Part shown: piece by piece, positions 4,257-28,062 of the stretch
Layout: every line of letters begins with the position of its first letter
How positions within the stretch are numbered: the first letter of the stretch is position 1
NCBI GenBank assembly: GCA_963664395.2
Contig: OY761159.2
Span: forward strand, 2,112,001-2,176,000
DNA length: 64,000 nucleotides
Source: Candidatus Binatia bacterium
Lineage (GTDB): Bacteria > Desulfobacterota > Binatia > Bin18
Direction: 5' to 3'
The notes under the pieces: model-generated
Database searches by the model: none
What the model was told of the DNA's origin: nothing
What the model saw: only the letters and a program-made list of their open reading frames with translations
Made by a program: the position numbers and the translations under genes

Positions 4257-4283
4257 AGATGGAGTCTCCCTGGGAAGTGGGGG

Positions 4284-5823: not shown

Positions 5824-5846
5824 TGTTCTATACTCTGAATAGCGTC

Positions 5847-6709: not shown

Positions 6710-6730
6710 GCGAGTGTCCTCTATGCGCCC

Positions 6731-8026: not shown

Positions 8027-8063
8027 AATCAATTCCCCACTATCGGCATTATCGGCCTGCTGC

Positions 8064-9212: not shown

Positions 9213-9223
9213 ACTATGCCTCT

Positions 9224-10021: not shown

Positions 10022-10135
10022 ATCCCCTCGCTTTGGAAAAAACTGTCAACTGACTAATCGGGCGGGGTCGAGTTTGTCAAGGGTTCCGGCCTGCGCGCTG
10101 GCCCAATCCAGCCGAGACCCTCGCGCCTCAGCCTT

Positions 10136-11330
10136 CTAGCGGCATCTTGGCTGGGACTCTCCTCCTCCCTCAGACTCGCGCCAGCTCGCGCACCAAGACC
10201 TGCAAGGATTGGGCATTATACGCCAAAAATGGTCAATATAGGGCAGGGCGGCCTTCATGCCCTGGGCGCGCGGTTCAAAGCTGGCGGCGCCGTACATGGG
10301 ATTGATCCAGACCACGCTGCGCACGCGTCGCCGCAGGGCGCGCATTTCGCGTTCAATGATCTCGGTGCGGCCGCTGTCATAGCCGTCACTGATAATAACG
10401 GCCCCCGTTGAGCGGGCCGAGCCTTCACGCAGAACACTCCGGTTCAACTTGGTGAGTGCTCCGCCGATATCCGTGCCGCCGGACCAGTGGCGGACCGTCT
10501 CGCCGACCTGCTGCAAGGTGTGTTGCACCGAGCGGCGGCGCAGCACGGACGTGATCTCAGTGACAGCCGTGCTGAAAACCACCGTGCGCGCGTTCTTGAG
10601 CTCCTTCTGAATCCCCAGCATGAGCTGCAAAAGAAACGGATTAAACGCATCCATGGAGCCACTCACGTCGCACAACATCGCACAACAGGACGAGGCGAGT
10701 CTTGCGTACGCGGCGCTGGACCCGGGCGAGTTCAACCATATCCATGCCGTGCCGCATATTACGCCGGAGTAAGCGTCGCAGGTCTATCCGCCGGCCGCGT
10801 GGGGACGGTTTGAGACGCCGGCTGGGGCGGGTGGCGAGACGCCTGGCTAGGGCACGGACGATGTGTTCGATGGGGGGCGCTGCCTCATCCCAACGCGCCG
10901 TCAGGTTCAGGTCGCGCTGGGTCTCCTGTGCACTGGTATCTTCAAGCTGGCCAATAATGTCCTGGTGGGCCTCCTGCAAGCCCTGGTCGAAGTCGCCGCG
11001 GAGCAACTCGGTCTGCACGCCTATGCGGTAGCCTGCGTTCTCCGCTTCCCCGTACCAGTAGGCCTTGAACACCCGGTCAAATCGTTGTTCTGCCGCTTGA
11101 CTGCTGGCCAGATTCGTCCGCAGGGCGAGGCGGAAGTCGTCCTCATTGACAAACTGAATACTACGCAGGGAGCGGGCGACATCAATGACGCGGCCTGGGG
11201 TCACACCGAGTTGCGCCGCCTTGGCTAATCGACACAGCTCCAGCGTGCGTGTGAGCAGCGTCTCGGGTAGCTGACTCAGAGCGGAGGGGGCTTCTTTGGG
11301 GGGTTCCGCTGGAGGCGTATCCCCACTCAC
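10136..11330 (-). pseudogene. CoxE-like VWA-domain protein, frameshifted
   Basis: RRIDLRRLLRRNMRHG, LCDVSGSM, WSGGTDIG, IISDG and WINP motifs split over two ORFs. A 10-bp tandem duplication (TCGCACAACA at 10668-10687) breaks the frame, and a second shift near 10225 hides the natural end ...AYNAQSLQVLVRELARV. Confidence 0.85.
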
Positions 11331-11548
11331 TCCGTGCCACCCTTCAGGATGGTAGCCGCCCCAATGGTGTGTAAGCGCTCAATATCGTCATGGTATTTCA
11401 GAATCACACCGGCAGTGTCCTCCAGAGTTTCCGCCCGGAGTTCGTCAATCTCCAGTCCGAGCGCCCGGTCGGCGATATAATTCCACTGGGCAAATTGTGC
11501 CTGGACGGCCTCAACCGATTGAAAGACTGGACGGTTCTGTTCCGACAT
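11327..11548 (-). pseudogene. CoxD/MoxR AAA ATPase remnant (N- and C-termini fused, core deleted)
   Basis: N-terminal FQSVEAVQAQFAQWNYIADRAL joined directly to C-terminal ..LRAETLEDTAGVILKYHDDI; no Walker motifs; overlaps the coxE-like gene. Confidence 0.7.
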
Positions 11549-11628
11549 GATGATTCCCGAGTTTTTCTTCCTGGTCGGGCTGAGTCAGGGCTTCATCTCC
11601 CTGCCCGACCGAGTATCTGGAGAGCCGG

Positions 11629-14600
11629 CTACAGTGCCGCCACGCTGAGCGCGTTTGAGCGCTCGGCCAGCCGCTGCTCAAAAGCGGCCAGCTCGTCATC
11701 CAGGATACTGAAGTATGTGGCTTGGGGATGATGAAAGACAAGCGCCGAGACCGAGGCTTCCGGTTCCATCATGTATCCCTCGGTCAGCTCGACGCCGATT
11801 GAGGCGGTGATTGGCAGCAACTGAAACAGGCGTTCCTGGTCTTCGAGGCGCGGACACGCCGGATAGCCGAAACTCACCCGGACACCGCGATACCGGGCCT
11901 TGAAGCGATCCCGCATGGTCAGCTCCGGCGGGTCGGCAAAGCCCCACATCTCGCGCAGGCGCTGATGGAGCAGTTCGGCAAACGCCTCCGCGCTTTCAAT
12001 AGCAAGGGCTTGCAGGATATGGGACTGGAGGTAGTGGCCCGCTTGGCGGTACTGTTCCGACAGTTCTCGTACACCGTGGCCACAGGTCACGACGAACAGC
12101 GCGATATAGTCCGGTTTGCCAGCGCTCGTCGGAGCCACGAAATCACTCAGACAGCGGCCCTCTCCATGCTGTTGACGGGGGAAGAGAAATGTCTCGACAA
12201 TATCTTTTCCGTTCGCCTGGTACAGCCGCAGGCTGTCGCCTTCTGCCTGGGCCGGAAAGAATTTATAGACCGCTTGAGCGCGCAGCAGTTTTTTTGCAAT
12301 AACCTCATCCATCACGGCTTCGACCTGTCGGTGTAACGCGACGGCTTTCTCGTTGCCCTGCGCTAATAAGGTCTCAAGATTGCCCTTGAGCCCCAGGTGC
12401 TTGCCGTACAGCATGCTCGGGTTGAGATAGGCGAAGATCGCCTCCAGATCATAATCAGCGAGCGTATGCGGACGCAGATCGGGCGGGAGTGGGGCGGGCT
12501 GTTCGTGTGCCAGCACGGCCGGTTGTACTCTGGGTGCAGATTTTCGCGGCTGAGACTTGCGGTCCTGCTGGGCTAAACGGGCCCGTTCTTTTTCAAGGTC
12601 CAGAATGAGCGCCGCGTGCTTGTCTTCATCCACAAGCCGGTTGGCCAGATCGAGTCCGCGCATGGCATCGTGAGCGTAACAGACCAGGCCGTCGTACTCG
12701 GGGGCAATTTTATTGGCGGTAAAACGTGGGGTGAGCGCAGCTCCACCAACCAGAATCGGACAGGCGACCTGGGCATTCTTGAGGTCCTGGGCCGTCACCA
12801 CCATCTGTTGGGCCGATTTGACCAGCAAACCGGACAGGCCCACAATATCCGGCTGATGTTCACGGACGGCTTCTATGAGTGTCTCAGGTGCGACTTTAAT
12901 ACCGAGGTTCACCACGCGGTAGCCGTTGTTTGACAGGATGATCTCAACCAGGTTTTTCCCGATATCATGCACATCGCCCTTGACGGTGGCCAGGATGACG
13001 GTGCCTTTGAGTGCACTGTCAGTTTTCTCCATAAAGGGTTCGAGATGACTCACCGCAGCCTTCATTGACTCAGCGCTTTGCAAGACCTCGGCCACAATGA
13101 GTTCATTGTTGTTGAACAGTCGTCCGACTTCATCCATCCCGGCCATGAGCGGCCCATTGATGATATTCAGTGGCAACTGATCGCGGAGGGCGGTGTTGAG
13201 GTCGGCAATCAGGCCGTCTTTTGAGCCTTCTATGATATAACGAGCCAGCCGTTCGTCCAGCGGAAGGGCGGCGTACGTATCCTCAATCACAGTTTCTTTT
13301 TTCTGTCGAAAGTGTGCGGCAAAAGCAGCCACCGGGTCCTCACTGCGCCAATAAATCAGATCATCCGCGAGTTGTTTTTCTTCTGCGGCAATCGAGGCGT
13401 AGCGTTCCAACCTTTCCGTGTTCACAATAGCCAAGTCGAGACCGGCTTTGACACAGTGGTAGAGAAACACGGAGTTCAGCACCTCTCGGCCGGCCGGCGG
13501 GAGGCCAAAGGAGACATTGCTGATACCCAGGATGGTCTTGCACGCCGGCAGCTCTTGTTTAATCAGCCGGACGCCTTCAATCGTCTCTTCCCCTGCGCCA
13601 ATATAGTTGTGGTCACCGGTTCCGAGTGGAAATACCAGCGGATCAAAAATGAGATCTTCAGCCGACAGGCCGTATTTGTGGGTGAGCAGCGCATAGCTCC
13701 GTTTCGCAACTGCGAGTTTTCGCCGCCGGGTGACCGCCATTCCCTGTTGCGGGTCTTCATCAATACAGCCCACAACCACCGCCGCGCCGTAGCGTTTGAT
13801 GAGCGGCACGACCTGCGCAAACCGTTCCTCGCCGTCTTCCAGGTTGATCGAGTTGACAATCGCTTTGCCCTGTGACTGTTCAAGCGCGGCTTCAATGACC
13901 CGTGCGTCAGTCGAGTCGATCATCAGGGGAACTTTGATCTTCCGCACCAGAATGTCCAGGAAGGCGGTCATATCGCTGAGTTCTTCGCGGTCCGGGTCTG
14001 CGACGCACACATCCACGATTTGGGCTCCACCCCGCACCTGCCGGCGGCCGATTTCTGCGCCTTCTTCAAACGCACCCTCAGTGAGGAGCCGCTTGAATTT
14101 GCGTGACCCAATCACGTTCGTTCGCTCACCGACCAGCACCGGACGTTTGTCGTCGTCAATCACCAGGGGTTCGAGCCCGGACACCACACTCCGTTTGGTC
14201 GTCGGCAGGGTCCGCGGCCGCTTGCCCTCCAGCATGTGCCTGAGCAATTCGATGTGGGCCGGCGTCGTGCCGCAGCAGCCGCCCAGCATATTGAGCCAGC
14301 CGGCATCAACAAAACGTTCGAGCTTGGCCGCAATCATCTCGGGCGATTCGTTGTAGTGTCCTTCTTCATCCGGCAACCCGGCGTTCGGAATACACACTGC
14401 AGGGAAACGAGAGAGCGCAGCTAAGGTCCGTAAATGATCGGTCATAAAATCGGGGCCGGTGGCACAGTTCAGTCCGAGCGCGAACAGGTCATGGTGCGCC
14501 ACGGAGGTATAGAGCGCCTCCACCCCCTGCCCGGCCAACATCGTCCCCATCGTTTCAATCGTGATGGAGACGGCGACCGGCACGCGCTGCCCGACCGTCC

Positions 14601-15186
14601 GAAACGCGTCGTCGATTCCCACCAGGCCCGATTTCAGATTGAGCGTGTCTTGGGTGGTTTCCATCACCAGCAGGTCCACGCCACCCCGCAGCAGACCTGC
14701 TGCTTGTTCGGCATAGGTGTGCCGCAGTTGGCTGAAGGTCACACCGCCCGTGACGGAAATCGTTTTTGTGGTCGGCCCCATGGAGCCGGCCACAAAGCGA
14801 GGCTTTTGGAGTGAGCTATACCGTTGGGCACTGGCCCGAGCAAGCTGGGCCGCGGCCTGGTTTATTTCTCCCGCTTTCTCTTGCAGACCATATTCGGCCA
14901 GAACGATACTGGCAGCGCCAAAGGTATTCGTCTCAATAATATCCGACCCGGCCTGCAAGAAGCCGTCATGAATCTTCGTAATCGCCGCGGGGCAGGTCAA
15001 TACCAGGTGTTCATTACAGCCTTCGTACTCAAGGCCGCCGAAATCTTCGGCGCATAGATTTTGGGCTTGGATGGAGGTCCCCATTGCGCCATCAAAGAGC
15101 AGCACCCGTTCGCGCAGGAGGGCGTACAGTTCCGTTGTCGTAGCCGATAAGGAAGGCCGTGTGTCGTTCAAATCTCTTATCCTCAC
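11629..15186 (-). CDS. metH: Cobalamin-dependent methionine synthase
   Basis: DGAMGT, GGCCGT, GERTN, ATVKGDVHDIGKNLV B12-binding motif, FGYPACP and PEASVS activation domain. Confidence 0.97.
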   Translation of the reverse strand: MRIRDLNDTRPSLSATTTELYALLRERVLLFDGAMGTSIQAQNLCAEDFGGLEYEGCNEHLVLTCPAAITKIHDGFLQAGSDIIETNTFGAASIVLAEYGLQEKAGEINQAAAQLARASAQRYSSLQKPRFVAGSMGPTTKTISVTGGVTFSQLRHTYAEQAAGLLRGGVDLLVMETTQDTLNLKSGLVGIDDAFRTVGQRVPVAVSITIETMGTMLAGQGVEALYTSVAHHDLFALGLNCATGPDFMTDHLRTLAALSRFPAVCIPNAGLPDEEGHYNESPEMIAAKLERFVDAGWLNMLGGCCGTTPAHIELLRHMLEGKRPRTLPTTKRSVVSGLEPLVIDDDKRPVLVGERTNVIGSRKFKRLLTEGAFEEGAEIGRRQVRGGAQIVDVCVADPDREELSDMTAFLDILVRKIKVPLMIDSTDARVIEAALEQSQGKAIVNSINLEDGEERFAQVVPLIKRYGAAVVVGCIDEDPQQGMAVTRRRKLAVAKRSYALLTHKYGLSAEDLIFDPLVFPLGTGDHNYIGAGEETIEGVRLIKQELPACKTILGISNVSFGLPPAGREVLNSVFLYHCVKAGLDLAIVNTERLERYASIAAEEKQLADDLIYWRSEDPVAAFAAHFRQKKETVIEDTYAALPLDERLARYIIEGSKDGLIADLNTALRDQLPLNIINGPLMAGMDEVGRLFNNNELIVAEVLQSAESMKAAVSHLEPFMEKTDSALKGTVILATVKGDVHDIGKNLVEIILSNNGYRVVNLGIKVAPETLIEAVREHQPDIVGLSGLLVKSAQQMVVTAQDLKNAQVACPILVGGAALTPRFTANKIAPEYDGLVCYAHDAMRGLDLANRLVDEDKHAALILDLEKERARLAQQDRKSQPRKSAPRVQPAVLAHEQPAPLPPDLRPHTLADYDLEAIFAYLNPSMLYGKHLGLKGNLETLLAQGNEKAVALHRQVEAVMDEVIAKKLLRAQAVYKFFPAQAEGDSLRLYQANGKDIVETFLFPRQQHGEGRCLSDFVAPTSAGKPDYIALFVVTCGHGVRELSEQYRQAGHYLQSHILQALAIESAEAFAELLHQRLREMWGFADPPELTMRDRFKARYRGVRVSFGYPACPRLEDQERLFQLLPITASIGVELTEGYMMEPEASVSALVFHHPQATYFSILDDELAAFEQRLAERSNALSVAAL

Positions 15187-15429
15187 CCTTTCATCATACG
15201 GAGGCCGACGTGGGGGATAAAGAGACTGGAGACGGTCGTGTCAAAAAGACCCGGCTCTCGGCAGCCGTCGGCAGCTCCACGTGAATAAGGGGCGCTCCGC
15301 TTAATGCAGTGCCTCTTATATACGCCAGGAATTTTCTTGTCTAATAGGCCGCGCCTGCAGTGCGGACACAAAAAGGGGATTGCCACAACATAGTGGAGGC
15401 GTTAGGGGGAGAAAAATGGGAGAATACTC

Positions 15430-17055
15430 ATGCAGCCTTTTTTTGAAGAATCGTTAGCCGAACATTTGACGCGTATCGAACATTATATGCGGGGGTGTGA
15501 GTTGCTTGATTTCCCGCGCGAAGCCAGCGTCTTACGGGCCGAACTTGCCGCGTTCATGCGAGCCCACGCGACCTCCGTTGTACAAGAATGGGTCGGACTG
15601 ATTGCACCGACGTTCCCGATTCCAACCGATCGCGTCCTTGGGGTCACACGCGATATGCGGGCCGCCCTCCTGCGTTGGGCCCAGCATATCGAGGCCCCCC
15701 ACGATACGCAGACCTACGAATATCTGCGCGAACATGCCCGGCAGGGGTTTATCTCTCTTTTCCCGGCCTCCCGTTTCCTGGCCAGCCAGATGAAAATTCG
15801 CCTGCTGATCGCGGAGCGTTTACGCGGCGCGTATGCGAAAGATCGGAAGAAACTCGTTGCCCTGCTGACCTTGCTGGACCAGGAGTTCTCCGAACGTCTT
15901 TTGCATATTACGGACTTCTTTGTTGAAGCCCGAGAAGAAGCGCTGCGGGATGAAGAGGAACGTCATCGCAAGGCGGTTGATTATGCCCCGGCGCCAATCT
16001 TTCAGATCAGCGGCTCTGACGGCACGATTCAGCAGGCCAATCGAGAAGCGGAGAAAGCCACCGGTATGTCCCAGACTGAGCTGGCGGGGCGGGCCATTTG
16101 GGACCTTCATCCCCCAGAGGAAAAAGCCCACGTCCGCCAGCTCTATCACGAGACATTGAAACGGGGCTATCTGGGCTGGGAAGACCTGCGTCTGGGAACG
16201 AAAAAGGGAGGGGACGTTGTTCCGGTCTCTGTCTATTTTGGGGCGATCGAGCATCGCGGAGAAAAAACCATCCAGGGCATCTATGTGGACATTTCCGATC
16301 GGCGCCAGTTGGAGAGCCAATTGATCCAATCAGAAAAAATGGCGGCAATCGGACAGCTGGCAGCTGGTATCGCCCACGAAATTCGCAATCCCCTCGGTAT
16401 CATTTTGAATGCGTTATACGATCTGGACCACATCGCAGATACAACCAACCCGGAGATTCATGAGGATCTGCACATCGCCAAGGAGGAAATTACTCGCGCC
16501 CAAGAAATCATCACCAATCTGCTTGAGTTCTCACGCGAGGGCGGGACCGATATGGAAGAGGTCGCCCTTGACGATCTGCTTGGGAAAACGCTCCAATTCA
16601 TGCGGAAATATTTGGAGACGCATAATATCCAAGTCGCGACCCACTTTGGTGATGTTGGCCGCTGTCTGACCAACCAGAACGCCCTGCGCCAAGTCTTTCT
16701 GAATCTCATAACCAATGCGGTTCAGGCCATGCCGCAGGGGGGCGAGTTGCGCTTACAGACCAAGCGGAATGCTCACAATCACGTCACGATTGAATTCAGC
16801 GATACGGGTGTCGGCATTCCCGCACATCAGCTGAACAGCATCTTCAACCCCTTTTTTACGACAAAGGAGCCCGGCCAAGGGACCGGCCTCGGCCTCTCGA
16901 TCGTTCATTCAGTGATCAAACGCTACCAGGGGGATATTGTCGTGCACAGCGCGGTGAACCAGGGCACGACGTTTCTCATCGAGCTTCCCTGTCCGTGCGC
17001 GAATGAATCCCCGGTTCTGGAAGCAGCCTCGACTGAACGGCTGTCCGTTCCCTAA
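15430..17055 (+). CDS. Cytoplasmic PAS-domain sensor histidine kinase with an all-helical N-terminal input domain
   Basis: AHEIRNPL H-box, NLITNAVQA N-box, DTGVGI, FNPFFTTK, GTGLGL; PAS region before the H-box. Confidence 0.92.
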   Translation: MQPFFEESLAEHLTRIEHYMRGCELLDFPREASVLRAELAAFMRAHATSVVQEWVGLIAPTFPIPTDRVLGVTRDMRAALLRWAQHIEAPHDTQTYEYLREHARQGFISLFPASRFLASQMKIRLLIAERLRGAYAKDRKKLVALLTLLDQEFSERLLHITDFFVEAREEALRDEEERHRKAVDYAPAPIFQISGSDGTIQQANREAEKATGMSQTELAGRAIWDLHPPEEKAHVRQLYHETLKRGYLGWEDLRLGTKKGGDVVPVSVYFGAIEHRGEKTIQGIYVDISDRRQLESQLIQSEKMAAIGQLAAGIAHEIRNPLGIILNALYDLDHIADTTNPEIHEDLHIAKEEITRAQEIITNLLEFSREGGTDMEEVALDDLLGKTLQFMRKYLETHNIQVATHFGDVGRCLTNQNALRQVFLNLITNAVQAMPQGGELRLQTKRNAHNHVTIEFSDTGVGIPAHQLNSIFNPFFTTKEPGQGTGLGLSIVHSVIKRYQGDIVVHSAVNQGTTFLIELPCPCANESPVLEAASTERLSVP

Positions 17056-19450: not shown

Positions 19451-22400
19451 ATGGACAACCGATTCTTCGAGCAGCCGATCTTGAACTCACCCTACGAGTA
19501 TCCCACGCAACACTGGGAGCTTGATGACCAGGGACAGCCAACACAGCAGATCATCGAAAGCCGCCGTCGGGCCGAGTTTATTACTCCCATTCCAAAGCCG
19601 AGAAAACGGAAAGGCTCATCGCACCAGCAGCAACTCGTCTTGGATGAGGGCAAAGGACTCTCAACCGCTGAGCAGCAGTACGACTCCACGTCAATTATCA
19701 CCGCGCTGCGCCGTCAGGTGGACCAGTGGCGCAGCCGACCAAATCGAGCCGACTGGCAGGTGACGCCCGAAACCGCTCGTCTGCTTCAACACTGGCGACA
19801 GCATACGTTCAACACTATCCGGCCCTTCTTCTGTCAGGTGGAAGCAGTTGAAACCGCTATCTGGCTGACCGAGGTCGCCCCGAGCGCGGGCAAGACCGGC
19901 AAAGACTTTCTGGACCATCTCACGAATGCCAATAACGACGCCAATCCGGGCTTGCTGCGCCTGGCGCTCAAACTCGCTACTGGCGCGGGTAAGACTACGG
20001 TTATGGCCATGCTGATTGCCTGGCAGACCATCAACGCAGTCCGCCGCCCAACGAGCAGAAGATTTACCCGAGGCTTTCTGATCGTCACGCCTGGCTTGAC
20101 GATCCGCGACCGGCTGCGCGTCCTGCAACCGAACGACCCGGACAGCTACTACGAAAGCCGAGAGCTGGTGCCGAACGACATGCTCGGCGACCTCGACCGG
20201 GCCAAGATCGTCATTACCAACTACCACGCCTTTAAGCTGCGTGAACGGATGGCGCTTTCAAAGGGTGGCCGCTCGCTACTCCAAGGCCGAGGCGCGGAGT
20301 TGGACACCTTGGAGACTGAAGGACAGATGATCCAGCGCGTCATGCCCGACCTCATGGGTATGAAAAATATCGTGGTGATGAACGACGAGGCACACCATTG
20401 CTACCGTGAGAAACCGGAAAAAGACGACGAAGGAACTCTGAAAGGCGACGAGCGAAAAGAAGCCGAGAAGAACAACGAGGCTGCGCGGCTCTGGATTTCC
20501 GGCCTGGAAGCCATAAACCGCAAGTTGGGTGTTGCACGGATCATGGATTTATCGGCCACCCCGTTCTTTCTACGCGGGTCGGGCTATGCCGAGGGGACAC
20601 TCTTCCCCTGGACGATGAGCGACTTTTCACTCATGGACGCCATCGAATGCGGCATCGTCAAACTGCCCCGCGTGCCTGTGGCCGACAATATCCCTGGCGG
20701 CGACATGCCCAAGTTCCGCAACCTGTGGGAACATATTCGCTCCCGGATGCCGAAAAAGGGCCGAGGCAAGGCCAAGACCCTCGACCCGCTCAGCCTGCCG
20801 GTTGAACTCCAGACCGCCCTGGAAGCCCTGTATGGTCATTACGAGAAGACCTTCAAGCTATGGCAGCAGGAAGGCATTCAGGTTCCGCCCTGTTTTATCG
20901 TGGTGTGCAACAACACCTCTACATCCAAGCTGGTCTACGACTACATCTCGGGCTTTCGGCGGGACAATGGGAACGATTCGACGGCGTTTGAGAATGGCCG
21001 CCTGCCGCTATTCCGGAACTATAATGCGGACGGGACTCAACTGGCGCGTCCACGTACTTTACTCATCGACAGCCAACAGCTCGAATCCGGTGATGCCCTG
21101 GACGCCAATTTTCGGGCTATGGCCGCGGGCGAGATTGACCGCTTCCGGCGGGAGATTATCGAACGCACCGGCGACCGCGGTCAGGCCGAGAATCTTTCCG
21201 ACCAAGACTTGCTTCGGGAAGTGATGAATACGGTCGGTAAACTAGGTCGGTTGGGCGAGTCGATTCGCTGCGTTGTCTCGGTATCCATGCTGACCGAAGG
21301 CTGGGACGCCAACACGGTCACGCATGTCCTGGGCGTGCGCGCCTTTGGCACTCAACTGCTGTGCGAGCAAGTCATTGGGCGCGCCTTGCGTCGGCAATCC
21401 TACGCTTTGAATGAAGATGATCTGTTCAATGTGGAATACGCCGATGTCCTGGGGATTCCGTTCGACTTCACCGCCAAGCCGGTCGTCGCCCCACCCCAGC
21501 CGCCCCGCGAGACTGTTCAGGTTCGAGCGGTGCGGCCCGACCGCGACCATCTTGCAATCCAGTTTCCACGTGTCGAAGGCTATCGCGTCGAACTGCCGGA
21601 GGAGCGGCTCAGCGCCGAGTTCAACGACGATTCCATTCTGGAGTTGACCCCGGACCTCGTTGGCCCCTCGATCACACGGAACGCGGGAATTATTGGAGAA
21701 GATGTTGACCTCAACCTCGTTCACACCGACGACCTACGGCGCTCCACCGTGTTGTTCCACGTTGCCAAGCGTTTGCTCTACACCAAATGGCGCGACCCTG
21801 GCGAAGAGCCGAAGCTCCACCTATTCGGCCAGTTGAAACACATCACCACACAATGGCTCGATACCTGCTTGATCTGCAAAGGCAGCACCTATCCTGCCCA
21901 GCTCATGTACCAGGAACTGGCCGACATGGCCTGCGAACGCATTACTGCCGGCATTACCCGCTCCTTCGTAGGCAGCCGACCCGTGAAAGCCGTATTGGAC
22001 CCGTACAACCCCACCGGCTCTACCATGCATGTGAACTTCAATACCTCAAAAGCGCATCGCTGGGAGACGGATGCACGGCGGTGTCACATCAACTGGGTTA
22101 TCCTCGACAGCGACTGGGAGGCCGAGTTTTGCCGCGTGGCCGAGTCGCATCCGGCCGTGCAGGCATACGTGAAGAATCACAACCTCGGTCTGGAGATACC
22201 CTACCGCTACGGCTCAACCCTGCGGACCTATATTCCTGACTTCATCGTCCTGCTGAATGACGGTCATGCCGATCCGTTGCACCTGATTGTTGAGATCAAG
22301 GGCTATCGGGGTGAAGACGCCAAGGAAAAGAAGTCTACCATGGAGACCTACTGGGTGCCTGGGGTGAATCGTCATGGGCAATATGGGCGTTGGGCCTTCG

Positions 22401-22543
22401 CCGAATTCACGGAGGTGTATCAGATCGAGGCCGACTTTCAGGCCACGCTCGAAGCGAGCTTCGACAGGCTTATCAATCGACCCCCTAGCCACTCCCCACT
22501 GAACAGAGGAGAAGATCATGAAATTGGAGGTAGTCGTCCATGA
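19451..22543 (+). CDS. res: Type III restriction enzyme Res subunit (helicase plus PD-(D/E)xK nuclease)
   Basis: LATGAGKT, NDEAHHCY, SATP, MLTEGWD, QVIGRALRR; C-terminal PDF...EIKG. Confidence 0.9.
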   Translation: MDNRFFEQPILNSPYEYPTQHWELDDQGQPTQQIIESRRRAEFITPIPKPRKRKGSSHQQQLVLDEGKGLSTAEQQYDSTSIITALRRQVDQWRSRPNRADWQVTPETARLLQHWRQHTFNTIRPFFCQVEAVETAIWLTEVAPSAGKTGKDFLDHLTNANNDANPGLLRLALKLATGAGKTTVMAMLIAWQTINAVRRPTSRRFTRGFLIVTPGLTIRDRLRVLQPNDPDSYYESRELVPNDMLGDLDRAKIVITNYHAFKLRERMALSKGGRSLLQGRGAELDTLETEGQMIQRVMPDLMGMKNIVVMNDEAHHCYREKPEKDDEGTLKGDERKEAEKNNEAARLWISGLEAINRKLGVARIMDLSATPFFLRGSGYAEGTLFPWTMSDFSLMDAIECGIVKLPRVPVADNIPGGDMPKFRNLWEHIRSRMPKKGRGKAKTLDPLSLPVELQTALEALYGHYEKTFKLWQQEGIQVPPCFIVVCNNTSTSKLVYDYISGFRRDNGNDSTAFENGRLPLFRNYNADGTQLARPRTLLIDSQQLESGDALDANFRAMAAGEIDRFRREIIERTGDRGQAENLSDQDLLREVMNTVGKLGRLGESIRCVVSVSMLTEGWDANTVTHVLGVRAFGTQLLCEQVIGRALRRQSYALNEDDLFNVEYADVLGIPFDFTAKPVVAPPQPPRETVQVRAVRPDRDHLAIQFPRVEGYRVELPEERLSAEFNDDSILELTPDLVGPSITRNAGIIGEDVDLNLVHTDDLRRSTVLFHVAKRLLYTKWRDPGEEPKLHLFGQLKHITTQWLDTCLICKGSTYPAQLMYQELADMACERITAGITRSFVGSRPVKAVLDPYNPTGSTMHVNFNTSKAHRWETDARRCHINWVILDSDWEAEFCRVAESHPAVQAYVKNHNLGLEIPYRYGSTLRTYIPDFIVLLNDGHADPLHLIVEIKGYRGEDAKEKKSTMETYWVPGVNRHGQYGRWAFAEFTEVYQIEADFQATLEASFDRLINRPPSHSPLNRGEDHEIGGSRP

Positions 22544-22700
22544 AGCGGAGGAAGGTGGTTATTGGGCAGAGGTGCCCGCTATCCCCGGCTGCACGACTCA
22601 GGGAGAATCTTTTGAAGCACTGCTGAGCAATCTCTACGAAGCGGTTGAAGGGTGTCTGTCCGTGGATGTCCAGGAGATTCCCGCGTCGGACAAAGGTTAA
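22518..22700 (+). CDS. hicB: Solo HicB-family antitoxin between res and mod
   Basis: EAEEGGYWAEVPAIPGCTTQGESFE. Confidence 0.85.
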   Translation: MKLEVVVHEAEEGGYWAEVPAIPGCTTQGESFEALLSNLYEAVEGCLSVDVQEIPASDKG

Positions 22701-22705
22701 ATTCA

Positions 22706-25477
22706 ATGGCTCAATCCCGTGGCAAGAAGACGGCCAAGACCGTCGCAACACTCACGCACCCCGCCGCATCGCGCAAGAATATCCCCACGGCCGAGTTTCA
22801 GTCGGTGATGCGTAAGGACGAACAAAGTCCGATTCAGGTTGCCTATGAGCGTCGCAACCGCGATTTGGACCCGCAGTTGGTGTGGCGGGGGAAGGACGAA
22901 CAGGACTGGTCGGACTTGGTCGTCCAGGCACCACCGCTCTACATCCAGGAGAAAGTTCATCCCAAGGTCCTCATCGACGACCTGCTCCGTCAAACCAAAA
23001 CCGACGACAAAGCCGCCGACGCCCAATTCGACCTGTTCGCCGACTTCAACGGTCTGCCCGACGAGGCCCGCTCCACCGATTTCTACCAGCACGACGCCAA
23101 CTGGACCAACCGCATGATTCTGGGTGACTCACTCCAAGTGATGGCGTCGCTGGCGGAGCGGGAGGGGCTGCGCGGCAAGGTGCAGTGCATCTACATCGAT
23201 CCGCCCTACGGCATCAAGTTCAACTCCAACTTCCAGTGGTCCACGACCAGCCGCGATGTCAAGGACGGCAACACCGGTCACATCACCCGCGAGCCCGAAC
23301 AGGTGAAGGCGTTTCGGGATACGTGGCGGGATGGGATTCATTCGTATCTGACATATCTGCGGGACCGGCTGACCGTTGCACGGGATTTGCTGACGGAGAG
23401 CGGTTCTGTGTTTGTTCAGATTGGGGATGAGAATGTGCATCGGGTTCGGGCGCTGATGGATGAGGTGTTTGGAGAGGACAACTTTGTCTCCTGCATCTCA
23501 TTTAAGAAGACTTCTGGCTCAGGCGCAGCGTACTTGGAGAATATCTATGACATGCTTCTTTGGTATGCCAAGAAGCGCCCACTTATGAAGTATCGTAGGG
23601 CATTCTTGCCGAAGGCGGCTCAGTTGTTAGACACGCAATACACTGAACAGGACTCCATTCGGAAAGCGTACGTCCTTGGCGATCATCGATATATGCCGGA
23701 CACTATTAGCTCACAGGGAGCCAGCGAGTCAGGGACTTACCCGATAGAACTTGAAGGTAAGATTTTTGAATTACCGCCAAATACACATTGGAAGACTTCG
23801 CGAGAAGGGATGCCACGCCTGAAACTCGCTGGCCGGCTAATAGGGGTGGGTAGGCGCATCCGGTACAAGCGGTATGCCGACGATTTCTCTGTCACGACGT
23901 TCAGCAATAGCTGGGATGACACGATTGTGTCTGGATATACAGATCCAAAAATCTACGTTGTCCAGACATCACTAAAAGTTACTCAACGCTGCATCCTCAT
24001 GGCCACCGATCCCGGCGACCTAGTTCTCGACCCCACCTGCGGCGCAGGCACCACTGCCTACGTTGCCGAACAATGGGGCCGCCGCTGGATCACCATTGAC
24101 ACGTCTCGTGTGGCCTTGGCGCTGGCCCGTGCCCGCATTATGGGTGCGCGTTACCCTTACCACTTGCTGGCCGATAGTCGTGAGGGGCAACGTAAAGAAG
24201 CTGAAGTCACTCGGACTGCTCCCTCTGAAACGCCGGTGCATGGCAATATCCGTCAGGGGTTCGTCTACGAGCGTGTCCCGCATATTACGCTCAAATCCAT
24301 CGCCAATAATGCCGAGATCGATGTGATCTGGGAGAAGTTTCAGGCAATGCTCGAACCGCTGCGCGAGCAACTGAATTGTACGCTAGGACAAGAGAAGACG
24401 CCGTGGGAGGAGTGGGAAATTCCTCGTGAGGCTGACGCTGGCTGGTCGGAGGAGGCGAAGAGGCTCCATGCCGAGTGGTGGGAGCAGCGGATTGCGCGGC
24501 AGAAGGAAATTGATGCGTCTATCGCGGCCAAGGCCGACTATGAATACCTGTACGACAAACCCTACGAGGATAAGAAAAAGGTGCGGGTTGCCGGGCCGTT
24601 CACGGTCGAAAGTCTGTCTCCGCACCGGGTGTTGAGCGTGGACGAAGACGACGAATTGATCGACGGCGTTGCCGAGCCGGAAGCCGGGTACGGCGAAGAG
24701 CATGACTTCGCCCGGATGATTCTGGAAAACCTCAAGACCGCCGGCGTGCAGCAGGCGCATAAGGAAGACAAAATCGCCTTCACCGCAATCACCCCCTGGC
24801 CGGGCGATTTGATCTGCGCCGAGGGCCGCTACCTCGAAGGCGACCAGGAAGCCGGCACGGAAAAGCGCGCGGCAATTTTTATCGGCCCGGAGTTTGGTAC
24901 GGTCTCTCGTCCGGACTTGGTCCAAGCGGCCCGTGAGGCAGGTGACGCGGATTTCGACGCGCTGATTACCTGCGCCTTCAACTACGACGCGCGCTCATCC
25001 GAGTTTGACAAGCTCGGCCGCATTCCCGTGCTCAAGGCCCGCATGAACGCCGACCTGCACATGGCCGACGATCTGAAGAACACCGGCCAGGGCAATTTAT
25101 TCGTTATCTTCGGCGAGCCGGACATCGACATCCTGGACGCTGAGAACGGACAGGTTCGGGTCAAGATTAACGGCGTGGACGTGTTCCATCCGAACACCGG
25201 TGAAATCCGTAGCGACAACGCCGACGGCATCGCCTGCTGGTTTATCGACACCGACTACAACGAAGAGAGCTTCTTCGTTCGCCACGCCTATTTCCTCGGA
25301 GCCAACGACCCCTACAAAGCCCTCAAGACCACCCTCAAGGCCGAGATCAACGCAGACGCCTGGGCGACCCTCAACAGCGACACCTCCCGCCCGTTCGACA
25401 AACCCACGTCCGGGCGGATCGCCGTCAAGGTCATCAATCATCTGGGCGACGAGGTAATGAAGGTGTTTCGGGTATGA
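22706..25477 (+). CDS. mod: Type III modification methyltransferase Mod (beta-class N6-adenine MTase)
   Basis: NRMILGDSL, IYIDPPY, later VLDPTCGAGTT; start set at ATG 22706. Confidence 0.9.
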   Translation: MAQSRGKKTAKTVATLTHPAASRKNIPTAEFQSVMRKDEQSPIQVAYERRNRDLDPQLVWRGKDEQDWSDLVVQAPPLYIQEKVHPKVLIDDLLRQTKTDDKAADAQFDLFADFNGLPDEARSTDFYQHDANWTNRMILGDSLQVMASLAEREGLRGKVQCIYIDPPYGIKFNSNFQWSTTSRDVKDGNTGHITREPEQVKAFRDTWRDGIHSYLTYLRDRLTVARDLLTESGSVFVQIGDENVHRVRALMDEVFGEDNFVSCISFKKTSGSGAAYLENIYDMLLWYAKKRPLMKYRRAFLPKAAQLLDTQYTEQDSIRKAYVLGDHRYMPDTISSQGASESGTYPIELEGKIFELPPNTHWKTSREGMPRLKLAGRLIGVGRRIRYKRYADDFSVTTFSNSWDDTIVSGYTDPKIYVVQTSLKVTQRCILMATDPGDLVLDPTCGAGTTAYVAEQWGRRWITIDTSRVALALARARIMGARYPYHLLADSREGQRKEAEVTRTAPSETPVHGNIRQGFVYERVPHITLKSIANNAEIDVIWEKFQAMLEPLREQLNCTLGQEKTPWEEWEIPREADAGWSEEAKRLHAEWWEQRIARQKEIDASIAAKADYEYLYDKPYEDKKKVRVAGPFTVESLSPHRVLSVDEDDELIDGVAEPEAGYGEEHDFARMILENLKTAGVQQAHKEDKIAFTAITPWPGDLICAEGRYLEGDQEAGTEKRAAIFIGPEFGTVSRPDLVQAAREAGDADFDALITCAFNYDARSSEFDKLGRIPVLKARMNADLHMADDLKNTGQGNLFVIFGEPDIDILDAENGQVRVKINGVDVFHPNTGEIRSDNADGIACWFIDTDYNEESFFVRHAYFLGANDPYKALKTTLKAEINADAWATLNSDTSRPFDKPTSGRIAVKVINHLGDEVMKVFRV

Positions 25478-25870
25478 CAATACCATCGCCGAAACAAGTC
25501 TTTGACGACCCGACAGAGCATTGGGCCTTTCTCACCCAAAGCTCTGATGACGATTTCGAGGGTCAGTATTTCGACCGTAAAGAGGCTGGCCGGGCGGGCG
25601 TTGACGCAAAAAGGCTGGAGAAGCAACTAGGAGGCATACGGGGTCAGATCAAAGAGACGATTTCTGCATTTGCCAACACAAACCGCAAGGGCGGGCTGCT
25701 CGTTCTCGGGATCGCCTCCAATGGAACCGTGAACGGCATTGACCACCTATCAGAACAGCAAAGGAACAGCCTGACAGATTTTGCGACACTCCTTCATCAT
25801 CAGGCAGCGGAACCCAAACTACATGAATGTGTGGATACTCAGGACAACTCTAAGACTATCTGTCTAATAT
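25474..25870 (+). pseudogene. Schlafen/AlbA_2 domain, N-terminal part of a truncated gene
   Basis: EGQYFDRKE...ISAFANT..GGLLVLGI...G.V.GI AlbA_2 signature; similarity ends at ~25870, and the rest of ORF 25474-26091 is out of frame. Confidence 0.8.
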
Positions 25871-26252
25871 TCGATTCTACGATAACCGGCCAGAAACAGA
25901 TGGTAGTCTGCGCCGCGGAAGCTACGTCGAAGCAGCGAAGAACAAAATCTACCTCTCGACGACCGGCTACAACCCGTTTCGTCGGGCGCTGGGAACACCG
26001 AAACCGCTGGAAGTCTCAGCGTGGGTCCATCGGCCAGAAGAATTACCGAGAGCGGAACTCGACCTTCGTGTTCTCGCAGTGCAAGTTCTAAACCTGACCA
26101 AGTTGAACTGGGCGTCTACAGATTCGTTCTGTGGAGAGCCTATTACTCTGAAGTACGCCGGAAACATTGCTTACTTAACCGCCGCATTTCTAAGACAATC
26201 CGAACCATTCAACCTCCACCCTGTTCTGGAAAAAACACCGTGGTTCATTTGA
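25866..26252 (+). pseudogene. C-terminal part of a prokaryotic Argonaute PIWI domain
   Basis: Manual translation of the frame starting at 25866: NIRFYDNRPETDGSLRRGSYV...LSTTGY...GTPKPLEV...QVLNLTKLNWASTDSFCGEPITLKYAGNIAYL...LEKTPWFI-stop. RG.Y, G.P.PL, LTKLNW...P.T.KYA and terminal WFI are pAgo C-terminal hallmarks. Confidence 0.8.
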
Positions 26253-26350
26253 TTCCGTAAGGACGGCCCCACTTGTGATGTAAGCTGCGCAGGTTGATCT
26301 ATGCCAAGTCGGGCTTGACAATCGTGCAAAAATGCACGACGTAGCGTCTG

Positions 26351-26557
26351 ATGAAGAGCGGCGAATTCGTCAGACGGGCCTAGCGCTATGCAAAAAGAGT
26401 CGGGCTTGTATCCCACTTTAATCCGAGCCGAGGCAAGGGCAGTCACGGACGGCTTCACGTCGGAGATCGCTTGACTACCGTGCCGCGCAAGGAAATTGGG
26501 CCGGGCCTGTTGGCCGCCATGTTGAACGACCTTAACATCGACAAGAAGGAGTTCTGA
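26351..26557 (+). pseudogene. hicA: HicA-like toxin with an internal amber stop
   Basis: MKSGEFVRRA*RYAKR...RGKGSHGRLHVGDRLTTVPRKEIGPGLLAAMLNDLNIDKKEF; TAG at 26381-26383; its TGA overlaps the hicB ATG. Confidence 0.8.
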
Positions 26558-26985
26558 TGCGGTACGCTTATCCATGCGTCTTGACGCCTGAAGAAGGCGG
26601 GGGCTTTTTCGTGCGTTTCCCCGATGTGCCGGGAGCGCTGACCTGTGGCGAAGACCGGACCGAAGCGTTGATGATGGCCGAGGACGCCTTGGCTGTAGCT
26701 CTCGCCGGTTACGTTCAGCAGCGGCGGGACATTCCCGCCCCAAGTCCTGTTAAAGCCGGCCAGGCAATCGTGACCCTGCCGCCACTTGTCGCCGCAAAGC
26801 TCGCGCTGTACACGGCGATGCGTCAGCAGGGCGTCACCAAGGTGGCCCTTGCAACTCGTTTGGGCCTGAGTGAGTCCGTCGTGCGCAGGCTTGTGAATCC
26901 CGAGCATCGCTCCCACATCAGCCAGATCGAAAAAGCCCTCCGCGCCGTCGGGCGCAAACTCGCAGTTGAGGATCAGGCGGCGTGA
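26557..26985 (+). CDS. hicB: HicB antitoxin with C-terminal HTH
   Basis: GGFFVRFPDVPGALTCG..EALMMAEDAL; C-terminal LATRLG...VRRLVNP HTH. Confidence 0.9.
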   Translation: MRYAYPCVLTPEEGGGFFVRFPDVPGALTCGEDRTEALMMAEDALAVALAGYVQQRRDIPAPSPVKAGQAIVTLPPLVAAKLALYTAMRQQGVTKVALATRLGLSESVVRRLVNPEHRSHISQIEKALRAVGRKLAVEDQAA

Positions 26986-27096
26986 GGAAGAGTCACTATT
27001 GGACAGAAGTTGGAAATCAAGCAGCAGGTGTTTCGGGTAAACTAAGGAGTGGGTGGAATTCGGCTTGATGTCAGGGGCACAGGCGGCCGGCCCGGC

Positions 27097-28062
27097 TCAG
27101 CGTATCTTGCCTTCAACAAAGGGGACTTCGTAGGCTTTTTCATGATTGATAGGACCGTGCCCGAAATAGCCCTCTTCGCCGAATAACTCGCCGTGGTCTG
27201 CGGTAATCGTAATATAGGTATTTGGGGGGACGATGTCGAAGAGGCGTTCAAACACTTCGTCAAGGTAGCGGACGGCATGGACCTGTCGCTTGCGGAGACG
27301 GTCGAGTTTGTCTTGATCGAAGAACCGCTCCCCTTCTTCATCTTCAATAAGCTTCCCGCCGACGACGGCGTCATCAAGATGCTTAAAGACCCCGTGGACG
27401 CCGTGAATCTTCGGCCACTCCTCGCTGGGCTCGTTGGGTAACGCGTACGGATAGTGCGTCTCTCCGACATTCAACAAATAAAACGACGGCCGGTCAGGAG
27501 AGAAAGATAACCGCTCAACCATAGCAGCCATGTCATTATGGGTTGGCATCAGTGTAAATGAGTCGAAGTCCTTATTGAGCAGCGTGGCGGGGTTCAAAAC
27601 GGGCAAAGAGACCATCGCATGCGTATGGTAGCCCAGCTTCCATTTTAAGAATGTGGGTAAAAAGAGCTGCGGAACCAGGCTTTTGAACTCAATCCGTTCT
27701 GCTCCGAGGCGTTCCTGGTATTTGAAAAAATCCCGTTTGTAATACTCGGAAGCATAGACTTGCTGCGGGCTGGAGTGGGGCAATAAGCCCATCAGCAGGT
27801 TGTAATGAGACGGGGCTGTCCAAGACGCATAGCTCCAACGACGCTGTACCTCACCCAGGGCACTGACCGTTCTCGGCCGGGCTTCCATAAAGGCATCATA
27901 CCGGCAGCTGTCAAGGATCACGATGAGGTAATTATTCCTGCCCTGGGGGGGAGGAAGCTGCCGCTCCGCGGCGACTTGGGACGGCGTAGCCAGCCGTGTC
28001 TCAGCCGGCTGGGGCACCTCCCCAGACCCGCCCCGATTGAAGAGCCGCTTCAAAATACCCAT
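27097..28062 (-). CDS. Sulfatase/alkaline-phosphatase superfamily metalloenzyme
   Basis: VILDSCRYD, SWTAPSH, ETHYPY, ITADHGELFGE..YFGH. Confidence 0.8.
   Translation of the reverse strand: MGILKRLFNRGGSGEVPQPAETRLATPSQVAAERQLPPPQGRNNYLIVILDSCRYDAFMEARPRTVSALGEVQRRWSYASWTAPSHYNLLMGLLPHSSPQQVYASEYYKRDFFKYQERLGAERIEFKSLVPQLFLPTFLKWKLGYHTHAMVSLPVLNPATLLNKDFDSFTLMPTHNDMAAMVERLSFSPDRPSFYLLNVGETHYPYALPNEPSEEWPKIHGVHGVFKHLDDAVVGGKLIEDEEGERFFDQDKLDRLRKRQVHAVRYLDEVFERLFDIVPPNTYITITADHGELFGEEGYFGHGPINHEKAYEVPFVEGKIR

What the first reader, a model, noticed from the sequence alone, without database searches (positions are those of the whole stretch)
25474..26252. Hidden Schlafen/AlbA-Argonaute gene remnant coupled to a type III R-M operon
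Seen: an AlbA_2/Schlafen domain starts overlapping the mod stop (ATGA). At about 25866 (AATATT) the sequence switches to the -1 frame and encodes 128 aa matching the pAgo PIWI C-terminus (GTPKPLEV, LTKLNW, PITLKYA, terminal WFI). The ORF track misses this. Established: some long pAgos carry N-terminal Schlafen-like domains. Inference: an internal deletion collapsed a Schlafen-pAgo fusion (or two-gene operon) that was translationally coupled to mod, pointing to an intact R-M plus Schlafen-pAgo defence system in relatives.
Basis: partly seen in the sequence, partly recalled or inferred. Interest (0 to 1): 0.8.

Follow-up and report, generated by a model that had tools for sequence, protein, structure and literature searches.

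The report
Deleted Schlafen-Argonaute gene after restriction operon
This stretch is the wreck of a 1124-residue Schlafen-Argonaute phage-defence gene that lost its middle 2.6 kb, and in relatives from several phyla the intact gene lies in the same place directly behind the same restriction-modification genes.

Summary
Window 25474-25872 encodes residues 1-133 (Schlafen/AlbA_2 start). Window 25866-26252, in another frame, encodes residues 997-1124 (end of PIWI) of one protein. Both pieces hit the same PADLOC pAgo model, at positions 2-131 and 995-1121 of 1121. They are 100% and 99.2% identical to an intact 1124-aa metagenomic protein, P0123.

A 2596-nt deletion between AATATTC and AATGTTC removed the rest. 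The assembly's own 98%-identical haplotig C7 still carries the missing segment. Contigs from two independent studies bridge the deletion junction, so it is not an assembly artefact.

The family is the known SLFN-pAgo family (RzAgo; bioRxiv 10.64898/2026.05.29.728809). The gene start overlaps the stop of a type III-like mod by 4 nt.

A homologous mod lies directly upstream of the pAgo in 7 of 80 genome loci and 5 of 22 metagenome loci, often with res. All belong to the window's own pAgo clade, which spans Binatia, Arenicellales and Planctomycetota. Within the genus the pAgo was broken independently at least four more times.

Functional coupling of the R-M system and the pAgo is not shown. Other cargo genes follow mod in sister genomes.

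The parts
19451..22543 (+). res: 1030-aa restriction subunit (SF2 helicase plus C-terminal endonuclease), open
   Evidence: Pfam ResIII E 3.9e-8 and RE_endonuc E 3.3e-5. NCBIfam NF046055 BPTD_3080 family restriction endonuclease, 1403.9 bits against a cut-off of 800.
22652..25477 (+). mod: 941-aa type III-like DNA methyltransferase, open. The start codon (GTG) is taken from the ORF list and was not verified.
   Evidence: Pfam N6_N4_Mtase E 2.4e-32. PADLOC MTase_III PDLC03632, 1451 bits. Orthologues at 72-85% identity in six genomes of the genus.
25474..25477 (+). ATGA: the pAgo start codon overlaps the mod stop codon
   Evidence: Sequence. The same 4-nt overlap (ATGA or GTGA) is seen in L032, L097 and L101/G001.
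25474..25872 (+). SLFN-pAgo remnant, residues 1-133: first two thirds of the Schlafen/AlbA_2 nuclease domain. It carries the E(x)4DxK motif (EGQYFDRK) and the SAFAN box.
   Evidence: 100% identical to P0123 residues 1-133. The motifs are as defined in the preprint, section 10.
25866..25872 (+). Deletion junction: AATATTC, the surviving copy of a 7-nt near-repeat. The intact allele has AATATTC on the left and AATGTTC on the right.
   Evidence: C7 compared with the window. The two tblastn pieces of P0123 overlap on exactly these 7 nt.
25866..26252 (+). SLFN-pAgo remnant, residues 997-1124 plus stop: last ~128 aa of the PIWI domain. It is in the -1 frame relative to the N-terminal piece and has no start codon of its own apart from an internal GTG at 26079.
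   Evidence: 99.2% identical to P0123 residues 997-1124. PIWI spans about 825-1103 of the family profile.
25474..26091 (+). Present-day ORF of 205 aa: 133 genuine residues followed by 72 out-of-frame residues
   Evidence: Pfam sees only the truncated AlbA_2 domain (profile 1-77 of 118).
26557..26985 (+). HicB-like antitoxin with an HTH domain, the next gene of the island. It is conserved at this place in G004.
   Evidence: Pfam HicB_lk_antitox E 1.2e-9. G004 synteny.

Best explanation
Window 25474-26252 is a pseudogene. It is what remains of an 1124-residue SLFN-pAgo: a Schlafen tRNase domain, a GHKL ATPase and a long-B Argonaute core, the family of Runella zeae RzAgo. A single 2596-nt deletion between two 7-nt near-repeats (AATATTC ... 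AATGTTC) removed residues 134-996. That segment held the end of the Schlafen domain, the GHKL ATPase, the N, PAZ and MID domains and most of PIWI. The deletion is not a multiple of three, so translation started at the ATG that overlaps the mod stop now runs out of frame and stops at 26091. The PIWI tail is no longer read. The remnant is inferred to be non-functional. In RzAgo, nuclease activity needs ATP-driven tetramerisation through the GHKL domain and target sensing by the Ago core, and both are gone here. The intact gene was the last gene of a res-mod-SLFN-pAgo cassette. That cassette is found in one clade of SLFN-pAgos and has moved between phyla. In this Binatia genus the pAgo has been inactivated repeatedly while res and mod often survive. 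This suggests (inference) that the abortive-infection tRNase is costly or dispensable there. Intact and deleted alleles coexist in nature.
For: SHOWN. One gene: both pieces hit one PADLOC pAgo model at its two ends. They are 100% (133/133) and 99.2% (127/128) identical to intact P0123, 1124 aa.

Undeleted allele in the same assembly: C7 is a 22.3-kb haplotig of C1, differing over 19.7 kb by 361 substitutions and 8 indels. It continues past the junction through pAgo residues ~134-998 and ends exactly at the right-hand repeat.

The junction is real: Logan contigs of run X4 (816 nt, 0 differences) and run X9 (1611 nt, 17 differences), from two studies, bridge 25873/25874. In X3 contigs stop and start exactly at 25873 and 25870. 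In X1 a contig carries 123 non-window letters before 25870.

Family: P0123 has AlbA_2 (E 1.4e-10) and HATPase_c_4 (E 4e-5). L034 also has Piwi at 36.5 bits. The family profile hits 22 Argonaute/Piwi structures. Architecture and length match the preprint's definition.

Cassette: the homologous mod lies directly upstream of the pAgo in L032, L034, L035, L041 and L081. Only the mod tail remains in L097 and L101. Res is present in 4 of these loci (80 loci examined). In metagenomes mod is upstream in L112, L113, L114 and L117, L115 has the tail, and res is in 2 loci (22 examined). On the tree, 6 of the 7 labelled rows sit in one 7-row clade. The label needs 3 changes against a shuffled mean of 6.8, and 0 of 500 shuffles are as low.

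Repeated decay at the syntenic locus: G021 has residues 1-258, 259-423 and 1024-1124, with a frameshift and a TAG. G004 keeps only the first ~14 nt. G001 has 1-51 joined to 686-1124. C7 is read in three frames.
Against: Pfam Piwi gives no hit on the fragment or on P0123.

C7's two frameshifts in the pAgo and two 1-nt insertions in mod could be real decay or haplotig errors. They are not in homopolymers, and reads were not available to decide.

In X1 and X3 no junction-bridging contig was among the pieces shown (1289 pieces not shown), so allele proportions are unknown.

Non-function of the 205-aa ORF is inferred only. It keeps the E(x)4DxK and SAFAN motifs.
Confidence: 0.93

Rival explanations
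1. The deletion is an artefact of the assembly: the organism really has the intact gene, and C1 was joined wrongly across a short repeat.
For: C7 carries the undeleted segment and ends exactly at the junction. In runs X1 and X3 the contigs shown break at the junction.
Against: Contigs of X4 (0 differences; 43 nt left and 773 nt right of the junction) and X9 bridge it, and they come from two other studies. A 7-nt imperfect repeat is far too short to mislead an assembler. C7 differs from C1 by 361 substitutions, so it is another strain and not the same molecule.
Confidence: 0.03
2. The truncated 205-aa Schlafen ORF, still translationally coupled to mod, is a working small protein. It could be a constitutive or dominant-negative SLFN fragment retained by selection.
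For: The ORF is open and starts at the original ATG overlapping the mod stop. It keeps the E(x)4DxK and SAFAN motifs. The deleted allele occurs in at least two studies' metagenomes.
Against: Only profile positions 1-77 of 118 of AlbA_2 remain, followed by 72 out-of-frame residues. RzAgo needs the GHKL domain and tetramerisation for nuclease activity (abstract and section 10). Sister genomes show different, progressively larger deletions at the same place, down to ~14 nt in G004. That is the pattern of neutral decay.
Confidence: 0.04
3. The mod-pAgo adjacency is only defence-island neighbourhood. The 3' end of mod is a hotspot where unrelated cargo genes land, and the pAgo works on its own.
For: Downstream of orthologous mod genes in the genus lie a UvrD-like helicase (G015), an AAA_16 ATPase (G006, G007, G001), Fic (G050) and unknown proteins (G012, G017, G027, G022). 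GmrSD-like and AbiP2 reverse-transcriptase genes are inserted between res and mod in L034, L035, L041 and L081. Extra copies of the mod tail flank cargo in G001 and G004. RzAgo defends alone in a heterologous host. The preprint states there is no conserved linkage with specific partners.
Against: The same mod family sits directly before the pAgo in 12 fetched loci plus 4 loci of the genus, across at least three phyla. It is found only in this pAgo clade. The 4-nt start/stop overlap is kept in Binatia and Arenicellales.
Confidence: 0.7

Closest known systems
SLFN-pAgo / RzAgo of Runella zeae (Kuzmenko et al., bioRxiv 10.64898/2026.05.29.728809; abstract, sections 5, 10 and 11 and searched passages read)
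   Same: The intact allele P0123 has the same architecture (AlbA_2 Schlafen, PF13749 GHKL, Ago core). Its length of 1124 aa falls within the family's 1071-1187 aa. The window's N-terminal piece carries the E(x)4(D/E)xK and SAFAN motifs. The gene lies in a defence-island context next to R-M genes.
   Different: The window copy is a deletion pseudogene. In this clade the gene has a fixed place directly behind a BPTD_3080-type res-mod pair, whereas the preprint reports no conserved partner. Its Extended Data Fig. 2 on neighbourhoods could not be seen. Direct identity to RzAgo was not measured, because its sequence was not among the fetched loci.
Long-B pAgos such as RsAgo (PDB 5awh, 6d8a, 6d95), and EcAgo (23wq)
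   Same: The MID-PIWI region of the family profile aligns to them (E 7e-13 and 1.5e-19).
   Different: They lack the ~450-residue Schlafen-GHKL N-terminal extension. Absence of the catalytic tetrad in this clade was not tested here and is taken from the preprint.
PrrC anticodon nuclease embedded in the EcoprrI type Ic R-M locus (PMC1484252, PMC3458546; abstracts seen in the search listing only)
   Same: A tRNA-cutting abortive-infection protein encoded inside or next to an R-M operon.
   Different: There is no homology: PrrC is an ABC ATPase with an ACNase domain. PrrC is silenced by, and physically bound to, its R-M enzyme, and nothing of the kind is shown here. It is an analogy only.
Type III restriction-modification (Mod plus Res)
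   Same: The Mod has an N6_N4 MTase domain and matches the PADLOC MTase_III model at 1451 bits. The Res has an SF2 helicase and a C-terminal endonuclease domain.
   Different: The gene order is res then mod. Mod is unusually long (941 aa). Res belongs to the NCBIfam BPTD_3080 family. Relatives carry other defence genes between res and mod.

Membership tests
SLFN-pAgo | N-terminal Schlafen/AlbA_2 domain (PF04326) with E(x)4(D/E)xK and SAFAN motifs | tested here: met
   In the window piece: PF04326 E 7.1e-9, above the cut-off, but only profile positions 1-70 of 118. EGQYFDRK and SAFAN are read, with the motif definitions. In P0123 the domain is full (1-118 of 118, E 1.4e-10).
SLFN-pAgo | GHKL ATPase domain (PF13749) after the Schlafen domain | tested here: not met
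   Absent from the window gene because it lies in the deleted segment. In the intact allele P0123 it scores 24.0 bits, just under the cut-off of 26 (E 4e-5). C7 scores 25.8 bits, L034 25.1 bits and the G008 protein 29.7 bits. Many family members carry a precomputed PF13749 hit. The family has the domain; this copy lost it.
SLFN-pAgo | Argonaute core ending in a PIWI domain | tested here: inconclusive
   The window keeps only the last 128 residues. There is no Pfam Piwi hit, but 16 PADLOC pAgo/PIWI models hit. For intact relatives the feature is met: PF02171 at 36.5 bits in L034, and the profile hits 22 Ago/Piwi structures.
SLFN-pAgo | Length 1071-1187 residues, single polypeptide | tested here: not met
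   The present ORF is 205 aa. The ancestral or intact allele is 1124 aa. The window copy is therefore a pseudogene of the family, not a working member.
SLFN-pAgo | Long-B clade, PIWI catalytic tetrad absent | not tested
   Taken from the preprint. The best solved-structure hits are EcAgo and the long-B RsAgo, but the residues were not examined.
SLFN-pAgo | Guide-dependent DNA sensing that licenses tRNA cleavage and phage defence | not testable with these tools
   Experimental property shown for RzAgo.
Type III R-M | Mod methyltransferase plus Res helicase-nuclease encoded together | tested here: met
   Both ORFs are open and full length relative to orthologues.
Type III R-M | Classical gene order mod then res | tested here: not met
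   Res (19451-22543) precedes mod (22652-25477) here and in L034, L035, L041, L114 and L117. I therefore call it 'type III-like'.
PrrC-type R-M-guarded tRNase | Obligate genetic linkage of the tRNase gene to an R-M locus | tested here: inconclusive
   Linked in one clade only: 7 of 80 genome loci and 5 of 22 metagenome loci. Most SLFN-pAgos are not linked.
PrrC-type R-M-guarded tRNase | Physical association with, and silencing by, the R-M enzyme | not testable with these tools
   No complex prediction was run. Neighbourhood alone was judged insufficient reason for one.

The most novel reading that the evidence does not exclude
In this clade the BPTD_3080-type res-mod pair and the SLFN-pAgo form one two-layer defence unit that travels between phyla. 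The R-M enzyme acts first. The co-translated Schlafen-Argonaute is tied to it, either held in check by Mod/Res or fed by its cleavage products, and kills the cell by tRNA cleavage when restriction fails, as PrrC does with EcoprrI. The repeated loss of only the pAgo in Binatia would then reflect the cost of that suicide arm.
Probability: 0.17. Interest if true: 0.7.

Novelty: new member of a known kind. Interest (0 to 1): 0.4.

Why it matters
The remnant itself is an ordinary pseudogene of a family that is already described. Three things around it have some value.

(1) It is a natural, dated example of how an abortive-infection Argonaute is lost. Intact and deleted alleles are 99-100% identical on the retained residues and coexist in public metagenomes. 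At least four other independent inactivations occurred at the same locus in one genus. That is a usable data set on the cost of SLFN-pAgo.

(2) One clade of SLFN-pAgos has a fixed place directly behind a particular res-mod pair, across Binatia, Arenicellales and Planctomycetota. The only paper on the family reports no conserved partner. This gives a concrete cassette in which to test cooperation between R-M and pAgo.

(3) An annotation pipeline that calls a 205-aa 'AlbA_2 protein' here is reporting a gene fragment.

Tried and rejected
Pfam Piwi on the 132-aa C-terminal piece and on P0123 gave no hit. I did not take this as refutation, because PADLOC pAgo models, PF02171 on 75%-identical L034 and solved Argonaute structures all match.

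G008's intact 1121-aa protein (P0002) was first taken as the reference. It is only 32-59% identical to the window pieces and lies in another context (MZB helicase, GmrSD), so it was replaced by P0123.

A search with P0002 alone in genome contigs found only its own record.

The family-level search (55 genomes, E<=1e-30) found the N-terminal half only in G000, G021 and G008. No intact close orthologue was found in the species representatives searched.

Relaxed tblastn (E<=1) for a mod tail upstream of 16 other pAgo loci gave nothing credible (L116 has no upstream sequence).

Window 26253-27100 is not a repeat in the genome.

Read evidence: only Logan contigs were available, so no allele frequencies, strand or expression could be read. 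Parts of the stretch without a bridging contig in X1 and X3 are not evidence of absence.

A complex prediction for Mod with the pAgo was considered and not sent, because neighbourhood alone is not reason enough. Structure prediction was not run, because sequence evidence sufficed.

The figures and extended data of the preprint are not held and supplements are closed. Its Extended Data Fig. 2 (neighbourhoods) may already show the mod linkage.

Only one paper uses 'SLFN-pAgo', and it contains no occurrence of 'type III restriction'.
Full report
WHAT IS THERE. The window carries res (19451-22543, 1030 aa) and mod (22652-25477, 941 aa) on the + strand. Res has Pfam ResIII and RE_endonuc domains and matches NCBIfam NF046055, the BPTD_3080 family restriction endonuclease, at 1403.9 bits against a cut-off of 800. 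Mod has an N6_N4_Mtase domain and matches PADLOC MTase_III PDLC03632 at 1451 bits. An ATG at 25474 overlaps the mod stop as ATGA. From that ATG, 133 residues match Pfam SLFN_AlbA_2 (E 7.1e-9, profile 1-70 of 118). They also match PADLOC pAgo model PDLC02394 at positions 2-131 of 1121 (E 1.5e-46). These match the same model at positions 995-1121 (E 2.6e-67) and 15 more pAgo/PIWI models. Pfam's Piwi model does not hit this short piece. The present ORF is 25474-26091, 205 aa, of which the last 72 are out of frame.

IT IS ONE GENE WITH A HOLE. A search with the N-terminal half of the undeleted haplotig allele found P0123 and many other ~1120-aa proteins. P0123 is an intact 1124-aa protein from public metagenomes. 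It is 100% identical to the window's residues 1-133 and 99.2% identical to residues 997-1124. The two matches overlap on window 25866-25872. Gene arithmetic (3375 nt intact against 779 nt here) gives a deletion of 2596 nt, which is not a multiple of three.

The assembly itself holds the undeleted form. Contig C7 (22.3 kb) matches C1 over 19.7 kb with 361 substitutions and only 8 indels, so it is a second strain and not read noise. C7 runs on past the junction for about 2.6 kb, encoding pAgo residues ~134-998. It ends exactly at AATGTTC, where C1 resumes after AATATTC. The deletion therefore lies between two 7-nt near-repeats, as expected for slippage or microhomology-mediated loss (inference).

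In C7 the pAgo is read in three frames, and mod carries two 1-nt insertions 11 nt apart that are not in homopolymers. I cannot tell real decay from haplotig error.

THE DELETION IS REAL. Only Logan contigs could be laid. A contig of run X4 (816 nt, no differences, 25831-26646) and one of run X9 (1611 nt, 17 differences, 25322-26900) bridge the junction, and they come from two studies. In X3 one contig ends at 25873 and the next begins at 25870. These are exactly the last and first bases shared by the two alleles. In X1 the contig covering 25870-26900 carries 123 letters before 25870 that do not lie on the window. Both patterns fit coexistence of the two alleles, but the letters were not shown and 1289 pieces were not listed. 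I therefore claim only that the deleted allele exists outside this assembly.

WHAT THE GENE WAS. P0123 has a full AlbA_2 domain and HATPase_c_4 (PF13749) at 24.0 bits, just under the cut-off. L034, 75% identical, also has Piwi above the cut-off. A profile of 29 members (A1) hits 22 solved Argonaute/Piwi chains over profile positions ~825-1103, best EcAgo at 1.5e-19 and RsAgo at 7e-13.

This is the SLFN-pAgo family of Kuzmenko et al. (bioRxiv 10.64898/2026.05.29.728809; abstract, sections 5, 10 and 11 and searched passages read). They describe extra-long long-B pAgos with a Schlafen domain and a GHKL ATPase. For RzAgo they show RNA-guided recognition of DNA, ATP-driven tetramerisation, tRNA cleavage by the Schlafen domain and protection from phages.

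Ryazansky et al. 2018 (PMC6299218, passages read) had already noted Schlafen domains fused to several long-B pAgos.

The window's N-terminal piece keeps the E(x)4DxK motif (EGQYFDRK) and the SAFAN box. It lacks the end of that domain, the GHKL ATPase and the sensor core. I infer the remnant is inert.

THE LINK TO RES-MOD. I fetched 80 SLFN-pAgo loci from species genomes and searched them with the window's Mod and Res.
- 9 of the 80 loci had some hit.
- In 5 loci (L032 Arenicellales, L034 Binatia, L035, L041 and L081 Planctomycetota) a homologous full-length mod (64-71% identity) ends directly before the pAgo.
- In 2 loci (L097, and L101 which is G001) only the mod tail is left there.
- Res (76-82% identity) is present in L034, L035, L041 and L081.
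- The other 2 hits (L052, L080) are weak matches to unrelated methylases placed elsewhere.

Of 22 JGI metagenome loci, L112, L113, L114 and L117 have full mod upstream, L115 has the tail, and L114 and L117 also have res. These are all 5 of the loci with >=71% identity over the N-terminus that have upstream sequence. None of the loci at <=58% identity has it.

On a quick ML tree of 72 rows (10 loci left out), 6 of the 7 mod-linked rows form a 7-row clade with SH-aLRT 90. L033 is the unlinked exception. L097 sits beside that clade inside an 18-row clade with support 97. The label needs 3 changes against a shuffled mean of 6.8, and 0 of 500 shuffles are as low. Near-copies inflate such clustering.

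The 4-nt start/stop overlap is shared by the window, G001, L032 and L097. L034, L035 and L041 have 45-48-nt spacers, and L112-L114 and L117 have 112-159 nt.

The pAgo of Arenicellales L032 is 88-95% identical in DNA to the Binatia gene, while its mod is 71-80% identical. The pAgo, perhaps with the mod tail, has therefore moved recently between phyla.

AGAINST A FIXED 'SYSTEM'. In the linked loci, other defence genes are interleaved: a GmrSD-like gene and, in L035 and L081, an AbiP2 reverse transcriptase between res and mod, and a NERD/UvrD helicase after the pAgo. In genomes of the genus with orthologous mod (72-85% identity) and no pAgo, other genes follow mod. These are a UvrD-like helicase (G015), an AAA_16 ATPase (G006, G007), and proteins without Pfam hits (G012, G017, G027, G022). 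In another family, G050 has Fic. Three relatives in the same 18-row clade (L037, L038, L040) instead sit between a DUF1156 methyltransferase and a DUF499 protein. RzAgo works alone in a foreign host. The preprint states that there is no conserved linkage with specific partners. I therefore rate 'hotspot plus co-transfer' well above 'obligate functional unit'.

REPEATED LOSS. G021 is syntenic with the window on both flanks. It has res and mod reduced to scraps, and pAgo residues 1-258, 259-423 and 1024-1124 with a frameshift and a TAG. G004, also syntenic, keeps the mod tail plus the first ~14 nt of the pAgo, joined straight to the sequence before the HicB-like gene. G001 has residues 1-51 fused in frame to 686-1124, a 487-aa ORF with a complete Pfam Piwi hit, behind an AAA_16 gene. 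Together with C1 and possibly C7, that makes four or five independent lesions in one genus.

Among the 80 genome loci my script flagged 11 of the 76 not cut by contig ends as disrupted. The criteria were a match split over frames, a span over 4.9 kb, or an open frame much shorter than the match. The flagged loci are L039, L062, L081, L087, L090, L097, L099, L101, L104, L105 and L110. I did not inspect each, and L099 is doubtful.

VERDICT. The object is a deletion pseudogene of a known family. The clade-specific res-mod-pAgo cassette and the segregating alleles are modest new observations. Organism: two genomes that the genome search places in the same genus correspond to records titled Candidatus Binatia bacterium.

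Noticed in passing
G000 contigs C2-C14 against C1: All 13 small contigs (10-26 kb) of the assembly are 84-99.6% identical variants of stretches of the 4.8-Mb contig C1. They are strain haplotigs and explain the 5.4% 'contamination' figure.
   Followed up: partly
window 25013-25500 (3' end of mod): In four metagenome runs this ~490-nt stretch has a summed contig depth of hundreds to thousands, against 7-60 on the neighbouring pAgo remnant. Up to 45 distinct contigs overlie one position. The last 106 Mod residues are 90-97% identical across genomes whose Mod is otherwise 72-85% identical. The mod tail is far more widespread and conserved than the rest of the gene.
   Followed up: partly
L016 (G001) 11742-11764 and 13210-13315; L140 (G004) 4015-4220 and 4900-5006: Extra copies of the mod tail flank cargo genes: an AAA_16 ATPase in G001 and a HicB-like gene in G004. 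The mod 3' end appears to act as a recombination anchor for swapping or stacking downstream cassettes.
   Followed up: partly
L016 10278-11741 (-), genome G001: An in-frame deletion turned the extra-long SLFN-pAgo into a 487-aa protein with a complete Pfam Piwi hit (39.2 bits). It resembles a short pAgo and lies directly behind an AAA_16/STAND-like ATPase gene. Whether it works is unknown.
   Followed up: no
L037, L038, L040 (about 5700-15450 in each): In a sister sub-clade the SLFN-pAgo sits between a ~965-981-aa DUF1156/N6_N4 methyltransferase and a ~960-971-aa ORF (DUF499 in L040, the only one scanned). This is another methylase-containing R-M-like module.
   Followed up: partly
L062, L090, L097, L104: The pAgo match spans about 4.9-5.0 kb instead of 3.4 kb. 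This suggests ~1.6-kb insertions (possibly IS elements) inside the gene in Acidobacteriota, Poribacteria and Arenicellales MAGs. The inserts were not examined.
   Followed up: no
L128 (metagenome contig), match 3596-4288: Only pAgo residues 894-1124 (90% identical) are present although 3.6 kb of contig lies upstream. This is possibly another 5'-deleted remnant. No mod hit was found there.
   Followed up: no
window 26557-26985 (+): A HicB-like antitoxin with a C-terminal HTH domain. No HicA-like ORF was seen among ORFs of >=30 aa just upstream.
   Followed up: partly
G000:C1:4406602-4409220: A second, 43%-identical paralogue of this long Mod lies elsewhere on the chromosome.
   Followed up: no
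L074, L075, L076, L083 (cyanobacterial loci): ORFs of 1191-1200 aa match the family only from residue ~161 onward. These cyanobacterial members have a different N-terminus in place of the first part of the Schlafen domain.
   Followed up: no
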